Below are positions 1 to 20,406 of a stretch of DNA of 24,071 bases, piece by piece. Under the pieces are notes generated by a model, which was not told the origin of the DNA, made no database searches, and saw nothing but the letters and a program-made list of their open reading frames with translations. The position numbers and the translations under genes are program-made. The first letter of the stretch is position 1. Every line of letters begins with the position of its first letter. This DNA is from a virus (taxonomy: Duplodnaviria > Caudoviricetes), in the IMG/VR virus record IMGVR_UViG_3300027533_000089, positions 1 to 24,071 of that record. One strand, 5' to 3'.

Positions 1-1
1 G

Positions 2-217
2 CTCTGGAACGGCTACGGCACAGGGATGGATAGCCCTCTCATGAAGAACACTGTTTGGGGTCTGTATAACAGTGTGGTGGAATGGGAAGATTATCGCCCT
101 ACGCCAAAATGGGCAGAAGAAAGCCGAAGCTACAATACGCTCTTCGGTGATCGTGCTCAAAACAAGGAGCTGGCTTACGCCGAGCTTCTTCAGTTTTCAG
201 TAGAGAACGTTTCGTAA
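2..217 (+). CDS. DUF932-like phage/plasmid protein, C-terminal fragment (5' truncated by window)
   Basis: Frame open from base 2: LWNGYGTGMDSPLMKNTVWGLYNSVVEWEDY...NTLFGDRAQNKELAY. This resembles the C-terminal 'T.WG..NAVTE..D....S..FG.....K..A' signature of DUF932 proteins. Confidence 0.7.
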   Translation, partial: LWNGYGTGMDSPLMKNTVWGLYNSVVEWEDYRPTPKWAEESRSYNTLFGDRAQNKELAYAELLQFSVENVS

Positions 218-220
218 GTT

Positions 221-260
221 CAGAAGGGTGGGCTTTGCTTCGGCAGAGCCTACTCTTCTG
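221..260 (+). other. 18-bp RNA hairpin with cUUCGg tetraloop (no U-tract)
   Basis: CAGAAGGGTGGGCTTTGC-TTCG-GCAGAGCCTACTCTTCTG. It pairs fully using 3 G-U pairs, which points to a + strand RNA structure. Confidence 0.8.
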
Positions 261-302
261 CACCATACGGATGCAGCAAAACAATCCCAGAAAGGAATTA
301 CA

Positions 303-536
303 ATGAATCGCAAAAGTCGAGGCGCACCCATCAAGCATAAATATGTAGTCGCTTGGGGGAAGTATGTAGATAGTATGGATTATTATATCAAGGATCAGCT
401 TGCGCTGGCCGAGATAGACAATGCTCCGGAGAATGCGCTTTTCAAGCGTGCCTCTGGGGAATGGGCTACACTAGATAGCATTGAAGATCCCAACCTTGCT
501 GCCGCACTTACTGACTACGTAAAATATCTTCCCTAG
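303..536 (+). CDS. Hypothetical protein (77 aa)
   Basis: SD AAAGGA then ATG at 303 (MNRKSRGAP...). The longer 228 start lies inside the hairpin and has no RBS. Confidence 0.75.
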   Translation: MNRKSRGAPIKHKYVVAWGKYVDSMDYYIKDQLALAEIDNAPENALFKRASGEWATLDSIEDPNLAAALTDYVKYLP

Positions 537-542
537 TAAATT

Positions 543-723
543 CAGACTGTTGTACCCTATAATATAGGCAAGTAAGGCAACCCAACCCCCGTATAGGGTT
601 GGTTTGCCCCCTGTAAGGGGTTTATACAGGGTTTATAGCGGGGTTGCCCCCCGTTGTGCTATAAACCTACCCAACCCCCGCTATGGGCAACGTTGCCCCC
701 TGTTTATAGGGTACAATAGTCTG
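543..723. repeat. Non-coding palindromic/repeat element (candidate origin, packaging site or structured RNA)
   Basis: 20-bp terminal inverted repeat 543-562/704-723 (1 mismatch). Internal stems 576-608, 609-631, 630-667. Palindrome GGGCAACGTTGCCC at 685-698. 35-bp direct repeat 580-614/669-703. No GA or TC between 546 and 720. Confidence 0.8.
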
Positions 724-776
724 CATTATACTGGATGCAGACCAAATTCTTTCCAGAAAGAAAGGTAGCCTATGAT

Positions 777-1685
777 ATGAAACTTATCAAGGATGATTGG
801 ATGCCCATGTTCGAGATGGCTTACCAGCTCGAGAAGCAGCTCAGTAGAGATTACTGGGCTGGAATCAACAAGCATGAGCAAGGGATGCACGCAGATTATA
901 GAGCATCGCAAGTGCTGATGGCAGTATCAGAAACTATTGTGCTGCCGTCATCAATCATGATGGATCTAGTTCATAATATAGATCGCATCGACACTCGCGG
1001 AAGCTTCTTGCTGCCGTATCCTTACCTTCTCATTCAATTCACAACACCAATCCGCGAGGAAGATATTATGGTGCATATTGAAAAGAATGAGCTCCAAGAA
1101 AAAAGTGGATTTCTAGAGGACAGAGTGCAGGGAATCTTAATGGCTAACGCCTTACAAGATGATAAGTACCCTCTGCCGAATCATGTGTTTAACATGATGA
1201 ATTGCTGTATCCTCTTCGAATCCACCAGCGTCAATCGTGTAGTCTGGCAAGGCACGGACAAACCCGCAGAACCGAAGTGGGACAAGTTCATGGCTGATCC
1301 AGCTGAGATGAGCAAAGAGTCGCTGGAAAATAAACAGCGGATGATAGCTCTATGCTATGCGATTAATCTGTTTCTCAATGCTCCTAATGTTATTATCCAG
1401 AAGGAGACGCCTGACCCCAAAGTGAACGAGAAGCGTGTTCGCAAGGGGAAGGCAAAGTTACCAGAGTATCACACTGTTACCATCCAAAAGTGGACGACAG
1501 TGTATGCTAAACCGAGCGGCAGGACAGGCACAGAACACGGAAGAATGTATCCTGTGCGTGGTCACTTCCGTAAGCTCCCACAGTTTGTAGATCCAATTTG
1601 GGTTCCCAATCACTTCAGGGGACTCAAGCACGGACCAGAGTCGATGCGGCCAGAAGTTTATAAGGTAGCATCACCGAAGCGGTAG
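777..1685 (+). CDS. Conserved phage hypothetical protein with C-terminal VRGHFR...WVPNHFRG motif
   Basis: Long ORF (735-1685). The start at 777 follows SD AGAAAGGT. A basic NEKRVRKGKAKLPEY segment precedes a H..VRGHxR..W...H.RG motif seen in many uncharacterised phage proteins. The start could alternatively be 735. Confidence 0.75.
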   Translation: MKLIKDDWMPMFEMAYQLEKQLSRDYWAGINKHEQGMHADYRASQVLMAVSETIVLPSSIMMDLVHNIDRIDTRGSFLLPYPYLLIQFTTPIREEDIMVHIEKNELQEKSGFLEDRVQGILMANALQDDKYPLPNHVFNMMNCCILFESTSVNRVVWQGTDKPAEPKWDKFMADPAEMSKESLENKQRMIALCYAINLFLNAPNVIIQKETPDPKVNEKRVRKGKAKLPEYHTVTIQKWTTVYAKPSGRTGTEHGRMYPVRGHFRKLPQFVDPIWVPNHFRGLKHGPESMRPEVYKVASPKR

Positions 1686-1688
1686 TCC

Positions 1689-1740
1689 AGGGGACAGGGA
1701 TCAGATTAACGCAACATTAAATTTGCCCTCCCTGTCCCCT
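1689..1740. repeat. 12-bp perfect inverted repeat overlapping a promoter
   Basis: AGGGGACAGGGA (1689-1700) / TCCCTGTCCCCT (1729-1740), with a 28-nt spacer. Confidence 0.8.
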
Positions 1741-1751
1741 TGTGTTATACT
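1723..1751 (+). promoter_or_regulatory. Sigma70-type promoter with extended -10
   Basis: TTGCCC (1723-1728), 17 bp spacer, TATACT (1746-1751), with TG at 1743-1744. It lies about 50 nt upstream of SD AAAGGA and ATG 1800. Confidence 0.7.
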
Positions 1752-1799
1752 TTAATCGTGCAGTAAACATCACCCACCGTTCCAAGAAAGGAACTAAAA

Positions 1800-3504: not shown

Positions 3505-3540
3505 ATACCCTAGAGCTTCATTGCTCTAGGGTATTTTTTT
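3505..3540 (+). terminator. Intrinsic terminator at the convergence of the two transcription units (possibly bidirectional)
   Basis: ATACCCTAGAGC-TTCATT-GCTCTAGGGTAT followed by TTTTTT. Confidence 0.85.
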
Positions 3541-4692: not shown

Positions 4693-7600
4693 TTATACGT
4701 ACATTATCCATGCCATAATAGTGGTATTTGTTGCTGTGCCGCCTTGTCGTGCAACTGTCAAACCGCCACCTGACGCAGTAAATAGGTAAGTCTCGCCAGC
4801 GATGCCCTGCGAAAACGAACCGTTTGGCCCGATGACGTTGTTTATCGGCCACGATACTGCGTTCGATGTGCCAAAGCCAACGAGGAACGCTCCCCTAGTA
4901 ATCGTTCCCCCCGCCAAAAGGGTTTGAGAGGCCACAACATTGATCTTGACGAGAAAAAGGACTTTACCCGCCTGTGCGTCAAACTGGAACGATGCTCCTG
5001 AAAAGAGGAAGGGCAACGCTGTGGATGTCGGGTCGTAAAATGCTCCCAGGCCAAGTCCGCTCGTGTTGACCGCAAAGTCTGCTCGATAGCTATTGTCCAC
5101 TGGGTACATAAGGCGGAAGTAGCCGTTATTGTAGGCTGACATCATTTGGAAAAACTTTTGATAACTGCTGGTGGCTGCAATCATGTGCAAATTGAACGTG
5201 CTGTTCGGGGAGAGGGGCAAACTGTTCATTTGGACACCTTTAACGTCCAAATTTGCCTGTGGCGTTGTCGTGGCAATACCAACTGCATACGGATTGATTG
5301 TCATAACATCCTGCGCCGATGTACCAGCGTACATCCGTATCTCGTCAAAGCCACCAGGGATATACCAGGCCATACGCGAAGGCACTGTCCCTGTTCGGCG
5401 CAGAACAAGAGCCGCTTGCCCCGCGCCTGTGTTAATGATCGACGCGCCGACCGCTAATGCGTTGTTGCCTTCAACGCTCAACCGATCATAAGGTTCGGTC
5501 ACGCCAGGAGTACCTGTGCCAATGCCGACCTTGCCGCCACCATAGGCAATAATCACGTTTCCTGACGAATAAAAATTGATACCGACTGGCCCACTTGCAC
5601 CACGATGACCATCCATGACCAGCCAATCGCTATTGCCCATGATGCTTGCTTCAGTGCTTACACGAGCTACCCGCAACTGTGTTTCATTGTTGCGTGCGCC
5701 TTGAATGACTGTAGCGCGATTTAGTTGAATCCCATCACTGTCAGCCGCATGGATCAGCCAAGTGGTGACGCCAGCCGTACTTGTATCTGCAACATCAAAT
5801 GCACTATGCACGAACAATTGCATCATGCGACGATCTTCGCGATTGGCACGTAGAATAATGATGCCATCAAACTTATCTGGTAAATCTCCCGATCCAGCTT
5901 GTAGAGCTAAGGTCACATCATTCGCTACATCTTTTCCCGTTGTCTGAATAAACGCCAGCGGCAGAGCAGTATCACGGGTATCTAGATCAGTGAACCAATC
6001 AATACGATTCATTTTATTGAACGGAGAACCTGATGCCGGAGTAGCTTCTAGCGATATACCCAATGAAGGTTCAATGGATAACGTGACGTTGCTTCCGCTC
6101 GTCATCCTGATCGCTGTGTTATACAACTCTGTTCCTGTGGACGTAATCACGATGCCCGACAAGCCCGTTGATGGCCCTAGCGTCAGATCATTGGCAGCGG
6201 CGAAACCATATTTAGTTCCGCTAACTCCAGCAAAGCTAGAAAGATTACCCATCGCTGTTACGGGACGAAGATTGTTCCAGGTCTGCGAAGAGATAGTGCC
6301 AGCCGTAGGATCAGCTTTGCGTGCATAAACTGTGACGGTAGGCCCAATATGACCCAAAACGGTATCTACACTAGCTATATCTACGTAGCCATTGCTCTCT
6401 ATTCTTCCCAAACTAAAGACCGCATCTCCTGCTTGCCAATCCTTTTCTCCGAGAGCATTATGATTGCGGGTCACTGTATAGCGGAAGCCAACTGTCAATG
6501 TAGTTGGTGTCACAGAAGTGACCCGAATGACTTCCGTCTGGGCTGTAGAGGAAGCTCCTGATACTGTTTCCAGGATCAAGTAAGTATATTGAGCGAAGGA
6601 GTTGTGCTTGAGATCAATAGTTGTTGCGCCAATGAGGAAGGGTGCAAGCAAAACAGATGTTGGTCCTACTCTGACATTACCACCTACTGTCGCCATGACA
6701 TCGGCAGAAACTATATTTCCGACAATCATTTCCGCAGCATAGAAGCTACGCCATTTACGATTGTAGTCACCCAAATCAACTACACTACTCCCTCTCGGCA
6801 GCACATCAGGATCAGTCCCCATCGGAGAAAGGATAATATCTCCACCAGGAGCAAGATTAAGATTGAAGACGCCTGTGGTCGTAATCGCAGCATCAATCAT
6901 GAAATTCAGATTGGCATTGACCTGTGGAGTTGAATTGAATTGGACGATACCAGTGGCATTGAAGGTAGCATTGGCGAGGAAGGTTGCGGCCCCACCGAAG
7001 GCAACCGTATTTCCCCAAGTATGTGCGCCCGTCCAGTCAAAAGCAAAAGCACGATTGACAATAACTGCACTTGCGGAAACGGTCAAACTGCCATCTCCAG
7101 CGACGACATCTAGCGTAACATTGTTATTGAGCGTACCTCCGCCAGAAAGCCCATCACCTGCTATGACGCTGCGATTTATTAGAATATTACTGATAACATA
7201 AGCATCATCAAGCTTTACTAGGTCTGCCGTAACGATCAGTCCTGTGCCGCCCTTAAAATCAATCGTAATATTATTGTTGAGGGTTCCAGTCCCCAATAGT
7301 CCATCACCTGCGATAATGCTACGACCAGCTAAAGTATTGCTCAGCACATAGGCATTATCCAGAGCTAGAAGAACTGTAGCATTGAGGAAACCTCCTCCAG
7401 TCAAACCTGCTCCTGGAGATATTTGCCGTTGCCCCATGACAGTAGACAGCACATAGCTATCATTCAAGATGATGCTATCTGCTCCCACCGTAAGACTGGT
7501 ATTGCCAGCGATCACATCGAATGTGAAGTTAGGAGCAGTCCCCGATCGGGTCATACCTGTTCCAGCGACATAACTGCTAAGGATAGGCAGGATACCAGGA

Positions 7601-17880: not shown

Positions 17881-18294
17881 CTATTTAACCCAATCAATAA
17901 GACCCAGATTAGCCATACCTTGAAGCCCTGCACGAAGTCTTCCAGGCCAGTAGTCCAAAGCTGGCCCTATGATGCCCCATCTACCCTGATAGGCAAACTC
18001 TAACCAGACGCCATATTCAGTATCAGGATCATAGGACATACGGATTACACCTATCGGCCCCACAGACTCATCTACGTATGCGGTCAAACCTTCGCGAGCA
18101 TGGATGAGACCTGCTGGCCGTTGATCATCTGGACGATCAGTCCAGGGAGCATTGTCCTTCATCCATTGCTCAATCTGTGGTGCATAGTCATGCGCTACGA
18201 ACTTCCCCGACAAGAGCACTTGATCGATGAACTCGTTTGCTATTTCGGGGAAACGCATAGTGGGTGGAACTGTCCATCTGACTCCCATAGCCAT
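17881..18294 (-). CDS. HK97 gp10-like neck/tail completion protein (137 aa)
   Basis: SD AAGGAG before ATG 18294. Motifs MKDNAPWTDR...AREGL...YGVWLE...GRWGIIGP. Confidence 0.75.
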   Translation of the reverse strand: MAMGVRWTVPPTMRFPEIANEFIDQVLLSGKFVAHDYAPQIEQWMKDNAPWTDRPDDQRPAGLIHAREGLTAYVDESVGPIGVIRMSYDPDTEYGVWLEFAYQGRWGIIGPALDYWPGRLRAGLQGMANLGLIDWVK

Positions 18295-19327
18295 CCGTCT
18301 CCTTAGCAATTACCTCTATCAAGTTCGCTGCCGCATCCATCCAAGTTTGATGGGAAGATAACCAGTTCCTAGCTTGTAGACCAACGTGCCTACCGTAATC
18401 CGGATGCTCATAGCAATGCAGCATTTCTTCCGTTACTCTATTGACGTTAGCTACTTCCCAAGTTCCACCACCACCCAATTTGGATGAATCGTTAATATCT
18501 CGCATCTCTCCAGACGGCAGGACGATAGCCCATTCGTCCGTATGACCATCATCCAACCCTGTATTCTGCATTACAATTACAGGAAGCCCCATCATCGCTG
18601 CTTCACGATGTGGCATCCCCCAACCCTCAGAACGAGACGGCAGAGCAACACAATCTGCTTGCCGATAAAGATCCGCCATATCTTGATATTCACTTATATC
18701 CACTTTAATACGTGGATCCCAATCTTCAGCTTTCGCTATCTTCATTAGCATAGGATTGCTATTGGGCAAGCTCTTGATAATTAACCTAACGTTCTGATTG
18801 CCAGTGGTCTTGCCGCCAAAGGCTTTGTAGAAAGCATTGTACACTTCATGCCAACCCTTACGATCTCCTCGATCAGCGAGTGTAAGGAAAGTATACGGTC
18901 TATCTACCTTTTCGGTAATCAATGGGAACTCGTCTGGATCAGTACCTAGATGCACTACCGATATAGGGAATTTGAAACCGCTATCGGCAAACACATTAGC
19001 GCAGAACTGAGAAGGCACAATCAAGCGTTCTACATTCGCTCTCTTGATCTTCTTCACCGTTGCTGCCGCAAGTTTGTTCCCTTCACACATCGTGAAGAGC
19101 CAATGCTTTCCAGGTATTCGGATGATAGATCTAAGATCAAAGTAAGATATTCTAAGATCATCTGGACGTACATCCATTTGATTAAACATCCACTGTGGTC
19201 TCTCCAGATCACCAGCAGTAAGATGTTTAACATCTACACCAAATACTTGTAGATGCTTTACCATCCAAGCCGAAGATCTACCAAAGCCATTGTACTGAAG
19301 ATAGTAGCTAATCCAGTTAAGTCTCAT
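18188..19327 (-). CDS. GT-B fold glycosyltransferase (family 4-like, Glycos_transf_1)
   Basis: Motifs VVHLGTDPDEF, DRKGW and DMADLYRQADCVALPSRSEGWGMPHREAAMMGLPVI (E-x7-E). ATGA-coupled to the upstream gene. Confidence 0.9.
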   Translation of the reverse strand: MRLNWISYYLQYNGFGRSSAWMVKHLQVFGVDVKHLTAGDLERPQWMFNQMDVRPDDLRISYFDLRSIIRIPGKHWLFTMCEGNKLAAATVKKIKRANVERLIVPSQFCANVFADSGFKFPISVVHLGTDPDEFPLITEKVDRPYTFLTLADRGDRKGWHEVYNAFYKAFGGKTTGNQNVRLIIKSLPNSNPMLMKIAKAEDWDPRIKVDISEYQDMADLYRQADCVALPSRSEGWGMPHREAAMMGLPVIVMQNTGLDDGHTDEWAIVLPSGEMRDINDSSKLGGGGTWEVANVNRVTEEMLHCYEHPDYGRHVGLQARNWLSSHQTWMDAAANLIEVIAKETDGYGSQMDSSTHYAFPRNSKRVHRSSALVGEVRSA

Positions 19328-19815: not shown

Positions 19816-20023
19816 CTTCCGTCCCATGCAACATATCATGCACGAAAGCGATCAGGTCAGATACGTAGTCATCCGAGGGTGTGAATCCATACTTCTCCTC
19901 GATTTGCGCTGACACCATATCGATATCGCTATCGCGATTAAGATTCTCGAAGCTGAACTCTTCAGGTTCTTCTTCCTCGATAGGAGGAGCTTCTTCCTCG
20001 AAAGGTTCTTCTGGTTCTTGCAT
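19805..20023 (-). CDS. Small highly acidic protein (72 aa)
   Basis: SD GGAGG with TAATG coupling at 20021-20025. Begins MQEPEEPFEEEAPPIEEEEPEEF... Confidence 0.65.
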   Translation of the reverse strand: MQEPEEPFEEEAPPIEEEEPEEFSFENLNRDSDIDMVSAQIEEKYGFTPSDDYVSDLIAFVHDMLHGTEDAA

Positions 20024-20406
20024 TATCCGTATGCCTCCCAAATTGTTTGGATTTCGCCAAGTGTAGGGATGATATCTATACAACGATATTGATCACCTTC
20101 ATAGACGAAAACATAGTTTTCCTTAATGTCTGTGTTCGGCAAGGTAGCGTGATTACGAATACCATATACAATGACCTTGCGCTTAGGAGCTGTACCTGCT
20201 GTACTCATGGAAGGTGTTGCCGTGTTGTCGCTTTCCACTCGTACCGCTTGTCCAGGAAGCTTCACGCCAGAAGAGTTTTTGAAGATTACCATCAGAGGAT
20301 TTTCCTGGATTCTACGCCAAGATTCAGCAGCAAAAATCTGCTCTCTTATTGCTCTACTTCTAGGAGTAGCTATAATACCAGTTATCCAGGATTGTAAATC
20401 TACCAT
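20023..20406 (-). CDS. Head closure / head-tail joining protein (127 aa)
   Basis: Synteny after the connector. C-terminal DIKENYVFVYEGDQYRCIDI resembles SPP1 gp16/FII-type proteins. Confidence 0.65.
   Translation of the reverse strand: MVDLQSWITGIIATPRSRAIREQIFAAESWRRIQENPLMVIFKNSSGVKLPGQAVRVESDNTATPSMSTAGTAPKRKVIVYGIRNHATLPNTDIKENYVFVYEGDQYRCIDIIPTLGEIQTIWEAYG

What the first reader, a model, noticed from the sequence alone, without database searches (positions are those of the whole stretch)
546..720. 175-nt intergenic island with no GA or TC dinucleotide on either strand
Seen: between GA at 545-546 and TC at 720-721 (symmetric positions within the terminal inverted repeat) there is no GA or TC step. 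All four bases are well used, CT/AG, TT and CC are common there, and GA/TC are frequent in the flanks. A naive estimate, (7/8)^174, is about 1e-10; internal repeats reduce independence but do not obviously explain the absence. Inference: this looks like selection to keep a cis-acting site (origin or packaging site) free of a GA/TC-directed chemistry. One option is a phage DNA modification installed genome-wide at GA/TC that would block protein binding or melting here. Another is a host enzyme recognising TC (DarT2 ADP-ribosylates TNTC in ssDNA; DddA-type deaminases edit TC). A modification-free window would be an unusual design principle.
Basis: partly seen in the sequence, partly recalled or inferred. 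Interest (0 to 1): 0.85.

Follow-up and report, generated by a model that had tools for sequence, protein, structure and literature searches.

The report
Phage zones banning GA/TC dinucleotides
A 175-base stretch of an uncultured phage contains no GA or TC, and related phages keep the same site, two other control sites and a 4.7-kb early gene block just as clean, likely so that these parts stay free of a predicted chemical mark on the phage's own DNA.

Summary
Confirmed. 546-720 has no GA/TC; the next-longest run in the window is 40, and simulations reach 100. Of 19 testable related loci, 9 have a GA/TC-free island at the same place and 7 a strongly depleted one, though the sequences are mostly unalignable; 3 have none. 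Relatives also keep a promoter island before the replication genes, an island after them, and a 4.6-4.8-kb early block: 8 GA/TC in 27.5 kb, with genes almost free of Asp/Glu. Best reading (0.5): virion DNA is modified at TC/GA, and parts read first stay unmodified. This island is a palindromic CCCTATA-bearing cassette, possibly an origin. Phage Iggy, a proven GA modifier, shows such islands too. The enzyme is unidentified: no DpdA or known thymidine-hypermodification enzyme was found. The candidate set is a divergent ThyX, dUTPase-nucleotidase, flavoprotein and glycosyltransferase, but seven cultured phages with the first three lack GA/TC islands. This scan noted GA/TC-free islands earlier in other phage genomes; my paper searches found no description.

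The parts
546..720 (.). GA/TC-free island ('island c'): self-complementary, hypervariable cassette, no conserved sigma-70 promoter
   Evidence: (fold z about -6)
539..562 (+). left arm of the closing stem (conserved intergenic hairpin 1)
704..727 (+). right arm of the closing stem
555..561 (+). CCCTATA motif copy (3 of the window's 4 copies lie in the island)
592..598 (-). CCCTATA motif copy
705..711 (-). CCCTATA motif copy
719..742 (+). hairpin 2, terminator-like, contains GA/TC; a similar two-hairpin spacer without insert lies at about 217-290
2..217 (+). 3' end of a DUF932 gene
   Evidence: homology to L016/G003 gene
303..536 (+). small early gene (77 aa) upstream; it and the island differ from close relative L008 while the flanks are near-identical
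777..1685 (+). 302-aa early gene directly downstream, weakly AcrVA2-like; used as the synteny marker
   Evidence: no Pfam hit
1723..1751 (+). sigma-70-like promoter that does contain TC (internal control: not every promoter is purged)
18188..19327 (-). GT4 glycosyltransferase among head-tail genes; candidate DNA-modifying enzyme or virion-protein glycosyltransferase

Best explanation
The island is one of four zones that this phage group keeps free of GA/TC on both DNA strands, likely because its virion DNA would carry a bulky base modification at TC/GA that proteins reading the freshly injected genome could not tolerate. Shown: (i) a 4.6-4.8-kb block heading the early genes, with two conserved acid-free genes and recoded ribosome-binding sites; (ii) island a, holding sigma-70-like promoters of the replication operon; (iii) island b at the end of that operon; (iv) this island. 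Inferred: host RNA polymerase starts on (i) and (ii) before any unmodified progeny DNA exists. Inferred, weaker (about 0.45 within this reading): island c is a replication origin whose inverted CCCTATA sites are bound by the phage primase-helicase. Inferred, weakest: the mark is a modified thymine, made as a precursor by the divergent ThyX/dUTPase-nucleotidase/flavoprotein set and decorated at TC, perhaps by the GT4 enzyme.
For: Synteny without homology: 16 of 19 testable loci have 0-7 GA/TC in their best 140 nt against about 20 expected; background minimum 9 of 77 regions. Nine block segments, 27,522 nt: sense-strand GA 7 of about 1,767 expected, TC 1 of about 1,530. Block ORFs: 3 Asp/Glu in 2,337 residues, while 4 of 9 retrieved homologues of gene b are rich in them. 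Island a is GA/TC-free for 152-172 nt in 7 of 8 loci and has promoter pairs in all 8 (one read by eye). Positive control: Iggy, which modifies G strictly in GA (PMC10484667, abstract and passages), has runs of 171, 161, 157, 152 nt (about 85 expected) and control regions with 5 of 26 and 5 of 25 expected sites. TG/TC-context thymine hypermodification is documented (PMC6449724 abstract; PMC13458397 passages). Origin lead: TACCCTA in 7 of 10 islands against 9% of block windows; 7 of CAjan's 10 CCCTATA copies cluster in a non-coding stretch near its primase gene; CCCTA occurs 12 times against 1.2 expected behind six actinophage primase genes.
Against: No modification was measured. No DpdA/FolE/QueCDE (control positive), no PaMx11-type amino-acid:DNA transferase or its neighbours, Mom in 1 of 5 contigs only. 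Seven cultured actinophages with the ThyX/oxidoreductase/phosphatase set (3 whole, 4 in part; two by annotation only) have no comparable GA/TC-free run: longest 45-79 against 52-62 expected. The GT4 gene sits among virion genes and G001 has a second glycosyltransferase-like gene there, which suggests protein glycosylation (recalled parallel). CAjan, which also modifies GA, shows only mild depletion (longest run 81, 76 expected). Other sigma-70-like promoters and the whole replication operon contain GA/TC. Against an origin: island c is missing at this site in L014 and L015, CCCTATA itself is absent from 5 of 10 islands, no origin function is known to me for the CAjan stretch, and stem mismatches favour G-T over A-C 16 to 6, mostly in the closing hairpin, which hints at an RNA role.
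Confidence: 0.5

Rival explanations
1. A host DNA-level defence reads GA/TC (or a mark on it) in incoming phage DNA; the first-entering block stays site-free until its products neutralise the defence, as with site avoidance in first-injected T5/T7 DNA (recalled).
For: GA/TC rises as a gradient over about 4 kb after the block (O/E 0.73, 0.95, 1.12, 1.18), as timing of entry would give; no known modifying enzyme in the clade; the gene after island c is weakly anti-CRISPR-like.
Against: Islands a and c lie about 16 kb and 7.5 kb from the block, amid normal GA/TC density, which entry timing does not explain. It is not shown that the block is a genome end; contig depth over it is not doubled (15.7-19 against 15.2, weak). 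Host unknown (searches found no prophage).
Confidence: 0.22
2. The ban has the cause given above, but island c works as RNA (processing or stabilising structure in the early transcript, ahead of the AcrVA2-like gene) and not as an origin.
For: It sits in or beside conserved intergenic hairpins; G-T over A-C mismatches 16 to 6; the sense strand has the lower folding z-score in 9 of 10 islands; long intergenic hairpins recur through the early region.
Against: No Rfam match near threshold; no shared fold between islands; relatives without the insert keep the hairpins; an RNA role alone does not explain a two-strand ban.
Confidence: 0.2
3. An mRNA-level reader such as CmdT (ADP-ribosylates A in GA of single-stranded RNA) drives the avoidance.
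For: CmdT is GA-specific and blocks translation (PMC11618068 passages); ribosome-binding sites in the block mostly lack GA.
Against: TC is banned on the sense strand even more strictly than GA (1 against 7); non-coding promoter DNA is purged too; CmdT acts only weakly on ssDNA.
Confidence: 0.05
4. By-product of repeats, or of TC-directed hypermutation, or a recent copy of the block.
For: Low k-mer variety; L013's island resembles G001's island b (71% over 75 nt).
Against: 307 substitutions in 8 island pairs, about 94 expected to create GA/TC, none did; transversions are as common as transitions; islands are not copies of their own block or island b in G004, nor of island b in G003; conserved acidic residues were lost in block proteins.
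Confidence: 0.03

Closest known systems
DpdA-dependent dPreQ0 modification at GA (Pseudomonas phage Iggy, PMC10484667; Escherichia phage CAjan, GA and GGC, PMC7544227)
   Same: Two-letter GA target; Iggy's genome has 150-170-nt GA/TC-free islands and a purged divergent control region.
   Different: No DpdA or preQ0 genes here; no multi-kilobase block in Iggy or CAjan; the passages I saw do not mention purged regions.
5-hmdU-derived thymidine hypermodification at TG/TC (M6, ViI, phiW-14, PMC6449724; SH-Ab 15599, PMC13458397; pathway in PMC8989533)
   Same: Context includes TC; precursor-type genes (dUTPase-like, 5'-nucleotidase, thymidylate-synthase-type enzyme, flavoprotein) are clustered.
   Different: The synthase is a divergent ThyX, not ThyA-fold; no PaMx11-type transferase or related flavoprotein; TG/CA is abundant in the islands.
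Site avoidance in first-injected DNA of T5 and T7 (recalled, not looked up)
   Same: A motif-free block at the head of the early genes.
   Different: The motif is a dinucleotide banned almost absolutely at the cost of acidic residues, and distant control islands obey the same ban.
CmdT of CmdTAC (PMC11618068)
   Same: GA-specific chemistry in the infected cell.
   Different: Acts on ssRNA; cannot explain the sense-strand TC ban.
AcrVA2 (10.1101/2022.11.29.518452, search listing only; PDB 7ci1)
   Same: The downstream protein is nearest to AcrVA2-like clusters and folds most like 7ci1.
   Different: E 0.013, TM 0.30, 8% identity; activity untested.

Membership tests
DpdA 7-deazaguanine-modifying phages | dpdA gene (with or without folE, queC, queD, queE) | tested here: not met
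   phmmer with CAjan and Iggy proteins against six-frame translations of 7 clade sequences: no hit at E 0.1; CAjan control positive. G003 lacks only about 4 kb of the block.
DpdA 7-deazaguanine-modifying phages | modified G at GA in virion DNA | not testable with these tools
   only assembled contigs available
5-hmdU hypermodifying phages | 5-hmdU DNA kinase and aGPT-Pplase/amino-acid:DNA transferase | tested here: not met
   no hit with PaMx11 gp46-gp54 queries or in Pfam/PHROG scans; single-sequence sensitivity only
5-hmdU hypermodifying phages | nucleotide-pool enzymes for a thymidine substitute | tested here: inconclusive
   dUTPase_2-NT5C fusion and divergent ThyX with RTR for RHR; could equally make ordinary dTMP
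DNA glycosyltransferase pathways (T4-type, TET-linked) | GT-B enzyme acting on a hydroxylated pyrimidine in DNA | tested here: inconclusive
   GT4 in the window and all 4 contigs covering the site, but among virion genes; no TET/JBP found
Mom-type adenine modification | mom gene in all island-bearing genomes | tested here: not met
   1 of 5 contigs; all are fragments, but G001, G002 and G004 span the site
sigma-70 promoter island | conserved -35/-10 pair within island c | tested here: not met
   none conserved over 13 c-type stretches; present in island a
phage replication origin | repeated initiator-binding motif in non-coding DNA | tested here: inconclusive
   TACCCTA in 7 of 10, CCCTATA in 5 of 10 islands
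phage replication origin | initiation activity or strand-skew switch | tested here: inconclusive
   skew follows gene direction and switches at the block and gene-cluster borders, not clearly at island c; activity not testable
MITE/IS-derived insertion | dispersed copies, own terminal repeats | tested here: not met
   single copy; the arms are a hairpin that exists without the insert
known structured RNA | Rfam match at gathering score | tested here: not met
   best overlapping hit 17.8 bits against 40.6
AcrVA2 family (downstream gene) | family HMM or fold match | tested here: inconclusive
   atlas clusters with PF26125 on 13-51% of members in the top three hits; Foldseek E 0.013; 0 of 25 in the Pfam copy held

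The most novel reading that the evidence does not exclude
These phages install an undescribed TC-specific base modification through a ThyX-based pathway and partition their genome into modified bulk DNA and modification-free boot zones: a 4.7-kb pre-early block whose acid-free proteins make the rest readable, the replication-operon promoters, and a swappable origin cassette.
Probability: 0.3. Interest if true: 0.92.

Novelty: new variant of a known kind. Interest (0 to 1): 0.8.

Why it matters
How a phage with chemically camouflaged DNA gets its first genes read is an open question. Sequence alone here marks which parts must stay unmodified and which two-letter context is hit, so motif-free zones could predict unknown modifications, pre-early genes and origins in metagenomic phages. 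The same signature is visible in cultured phage Iggy, where it can be tested directly.

Tried and rejected
Exact search for the stem arm in viral contigs gave 5 chance hits in unrelated coding DNA. The unaligned marker found nothing in viral contigs. Both genome-collection scans found no prophage, so the host is unknown. Rfam: nothing. I first took the long runs at locus starts for N padding; they are real sequence. The idea that the GA/TC ban follows from the ThyX gene set failed in seven cultured phages. The flavoprotein has a generic FAD fold (UDP-galactopyranose mutase, monooxygenases; TM 0.45-0.56), is not PaMx11 gp47 and has no tblastn hit in cultured phages. A junction-motif scan gave G001, G004 and one unrelated contig. 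The RNA run laid nothing, which is no evidence either way. Four metagenome contigs could not be searched whole. PaMx11 shows only mild GA/TC and TG depletion before its helicase. L025 (45% marker identity, different layout) has only partial purging. Paper searches for a prior description found none; supplements were not read.

Full report
Observation. The window is a 24-kb fragment of a tailed phage (capsid, tail and GT4 genes) and is all that is held of this genome. The GA/TC gap at 546-720 is exact, four times the next longest, and outside Markov and shuffle controls. It folds with z about -6 as DNA or RNA and has no Rfam match.

Synteny. Homologues of the downstream gene gave 21 metagenome loci and 4 IMG/VR records that duplicate four of them. 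L007 is the window's own contig and L026 is too short. Of the other 19, nine have a 140-nt stretch with no GA/TC just upstream, seven have 2-7 sites, and three (L014, L015, L025) have 11-14, against about 20 expected. These are not independent: L006 equals the window, L017 equals L024, and L021-L023 are near-identical. Most islands cannot be aligned to each other. Where they can, 307 substitutions in 8 pairs of a-, b- and c-type islands, about 94 of which should have created a site, created none (the stretches were chosen as free, so this is conditional). L014 and L015 have only the two hairpins, so the 'terminal repeat' is a conserved stem, and the island is an insert in its loop or behind the second hairpin.

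The larger pattern. Relatives carry a block about 7.5 kb upstream: 4,720 nt in G004, 4,782 in G005 and 4,623 in G001, and partial blocks in six more; 27,522 nt hold 8 GA/TC. On the sense strand GA is 7 of about 1,767 expected and TC 1 of about 1,530, which points to a reader of DNA and away from an mRNA enzyme such as CmdT (PMC11618068, passages). Two genes in the block are conserved; 14 block ORFs have 3 Asp/Glu in 2,337 residues, while 4 of 9 retrieved homologues of gene b are rich in acidic residues and one is intermediate. Their ribosome-binding sites mostly read AAAGG or AAGGGG. After the block GA/TC recovers over about 4 kb; in the first 1.5 kb GAC/GAG are at about 0.4 and GAA/GAT at about 0.8 of their level elsewhere. 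Island a, before the helicase, is free for 152-172 nt in 7 of 8 loci and holds sigma-70-like promoter pairs. Island b, after the lysis end of the replication operon, is free for 166-172 nt in 4 of 4. GGCC is also rare in the blocks (O/E 0.1). In run X1, which may be the source sample, one 7,652-nt contig matches window 1-1794 exactly and L008 3372-9541 nearly so, and abuts a contig of like depth that holds the last 790 nt of L008's block. The window's phage therefore most likely has the block too, and differs from L008 mainly in the small gene plus island.

Which chemistry. G003 (52.5 kb) begins and ends in the block, so nearly all its genes are visible. Shared candidates are a flavoprotein, a dUTPase_2-NT5C fusion, a 143-aa phrog_1485 protein, a divergent ThyX, and GT4. 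Not found: DpdA and preQ0 enzymes, PaMx11-type transferase and neighbours, a shared Mom (1 of 5). The closest cultured ThyX genes are in Mycobacterium phage Onyinye and Streptomyces phages such as Gibson, next to homologous oxidoreductase and phosphatase genes (distribution also in PMC11385102, first part read). None of seven such phages has a GA/TC-free zone, so this set is not sufficient. Three of six (Ranch, Xenia2, P3.1) have a CA/TG-poor stretch behind the primase gene (3, 4 and 8 per 200 nt against medians of 27-29), which may reflect another context or only repeat vocabulary. TG/TC-context thymine hypermodification is known (PMC6449724 abstract; PMC13458397 and PMC8989533 passages), and GT-B enzymes with MshA-like folds do glycosylate phage DNA (PMC13326640 and 10.1101/2023.12.21.572611 passages), but GT4's place among virion genes allows protein glycosylation (recalled parallel).

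Positive control. Iggy modifies G strictly in GA (PMC10484667). Its genome has GA/TC-free runs of 171, 161, 157 and 152 nt where about 85 is expected (the three longest in coding DNA), and 2 of 9 intergenic stretches examined, both at its divergent control region, have 5 sites where 25-26 are expected. CAjan shows only mild depletion. Self-exemption thus occurs in at least one phage of known chemistry.

What island c does. It has no conserved promoter. TACCCTA occurs in 7 of 10 distinct islands against 9% of block windows. Three of the window's four CCCTATA lie in it; seven of CAjan's ten cluster in non-coding DNA near its primase gene; CCCTA is about tenfold enriched behind six actinophage primase genes. 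This suggests an origin for a primase-helicase, by inference only: the motif is missing from several islands, two relatives lack the insert here, and G-T wobble bias in the closing stems supports an RNA role. The downstream protein is weakly AcrVA2-like (no Pfam hit).

Verdict. The ban is real, clade-wide, two-stranded and under selection. Self-exemption from a virion DNA modification is the most likely cause (0.5), a host DNA-level defence the main rival. This scan reported GA/TC-free islands in other phage genomes, mostly with DpdA or thymidine-hypermodification genes (unchecked notes, one partly fell), but nothing on this genome or its look-alikes. Four paper searches found no description; the library lacks most subscription papers. 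What is special here is the size of the block, the four-zone layout and the lack of any known enzyme.

Noticed in passing
L038 4153-8873 (G004 24153-28873); L062 6325-11107; G001 27777-32400: Complete 4.6-4.8-kb GA/TC-free blocks with two conserved acid-free genes of unknown function.
   Followed up: yes
G001 27734-27753, G003 about 51679-51700, G004 24136-24155, L062 about 6255-6275: Conserved motif of the form ATCGGRGATGG-TCGG after an A/T-tract stretch, right at the left edge of the block; candidate genome end or packaging site.
   Followed up: partly
L070 about 39950-40629 (Iggy 59949-60628): Divergent control region of cultured phage Iggy is strongly purged of GA/TC, its own modification motif.
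   Followed up: partly
L068 about 19970-20260 (CAjan 49970-50260): Cluster of CCCTATA repeats in non-coding DNA near the primase gene; candidate origin.
   Followed up: partly
L054 32602-32877 (Ranch), L064 35193-35528 (Xenia2), L065 35697-36055 (P3.1): CA/TG-poor non-coding stretch behind the primase-polymerase gene.
   Followed up: partly
L008 2600-4400, G001 33000-35000, window 217-290: Early genes are separated by long stem-loops with GA/TC-free arms and TCNGA in or beside the loop; possible RNase processing sites.
   Followed up: no
L025 3885-4417: A distant relative has a promoter and small gene where GA survives almost only in Asp/Glu codons and TC, CC and GG are nearly absent.
   Followed up: no
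L035 16026-17409 (G003): Mom-like and ParB-like genes inserted between the terminase-side genes in one relative only.
   Followed up: partly
L017 9672-10001, L024 7301-7630: An HNH/NUMOD4 gene is inserted between island c and the AcrVA2-like gene.
   Followed up: no
window and G003, genome-wide: CGCG is strongly avoided (O/E 0.21), then CCGG and GGCC: likely host restriction sites.
   Followed up: no
window 3506-3533: Inverted pair of TACCCTA motifs in the convergent intergenic region.
   Followed up: no
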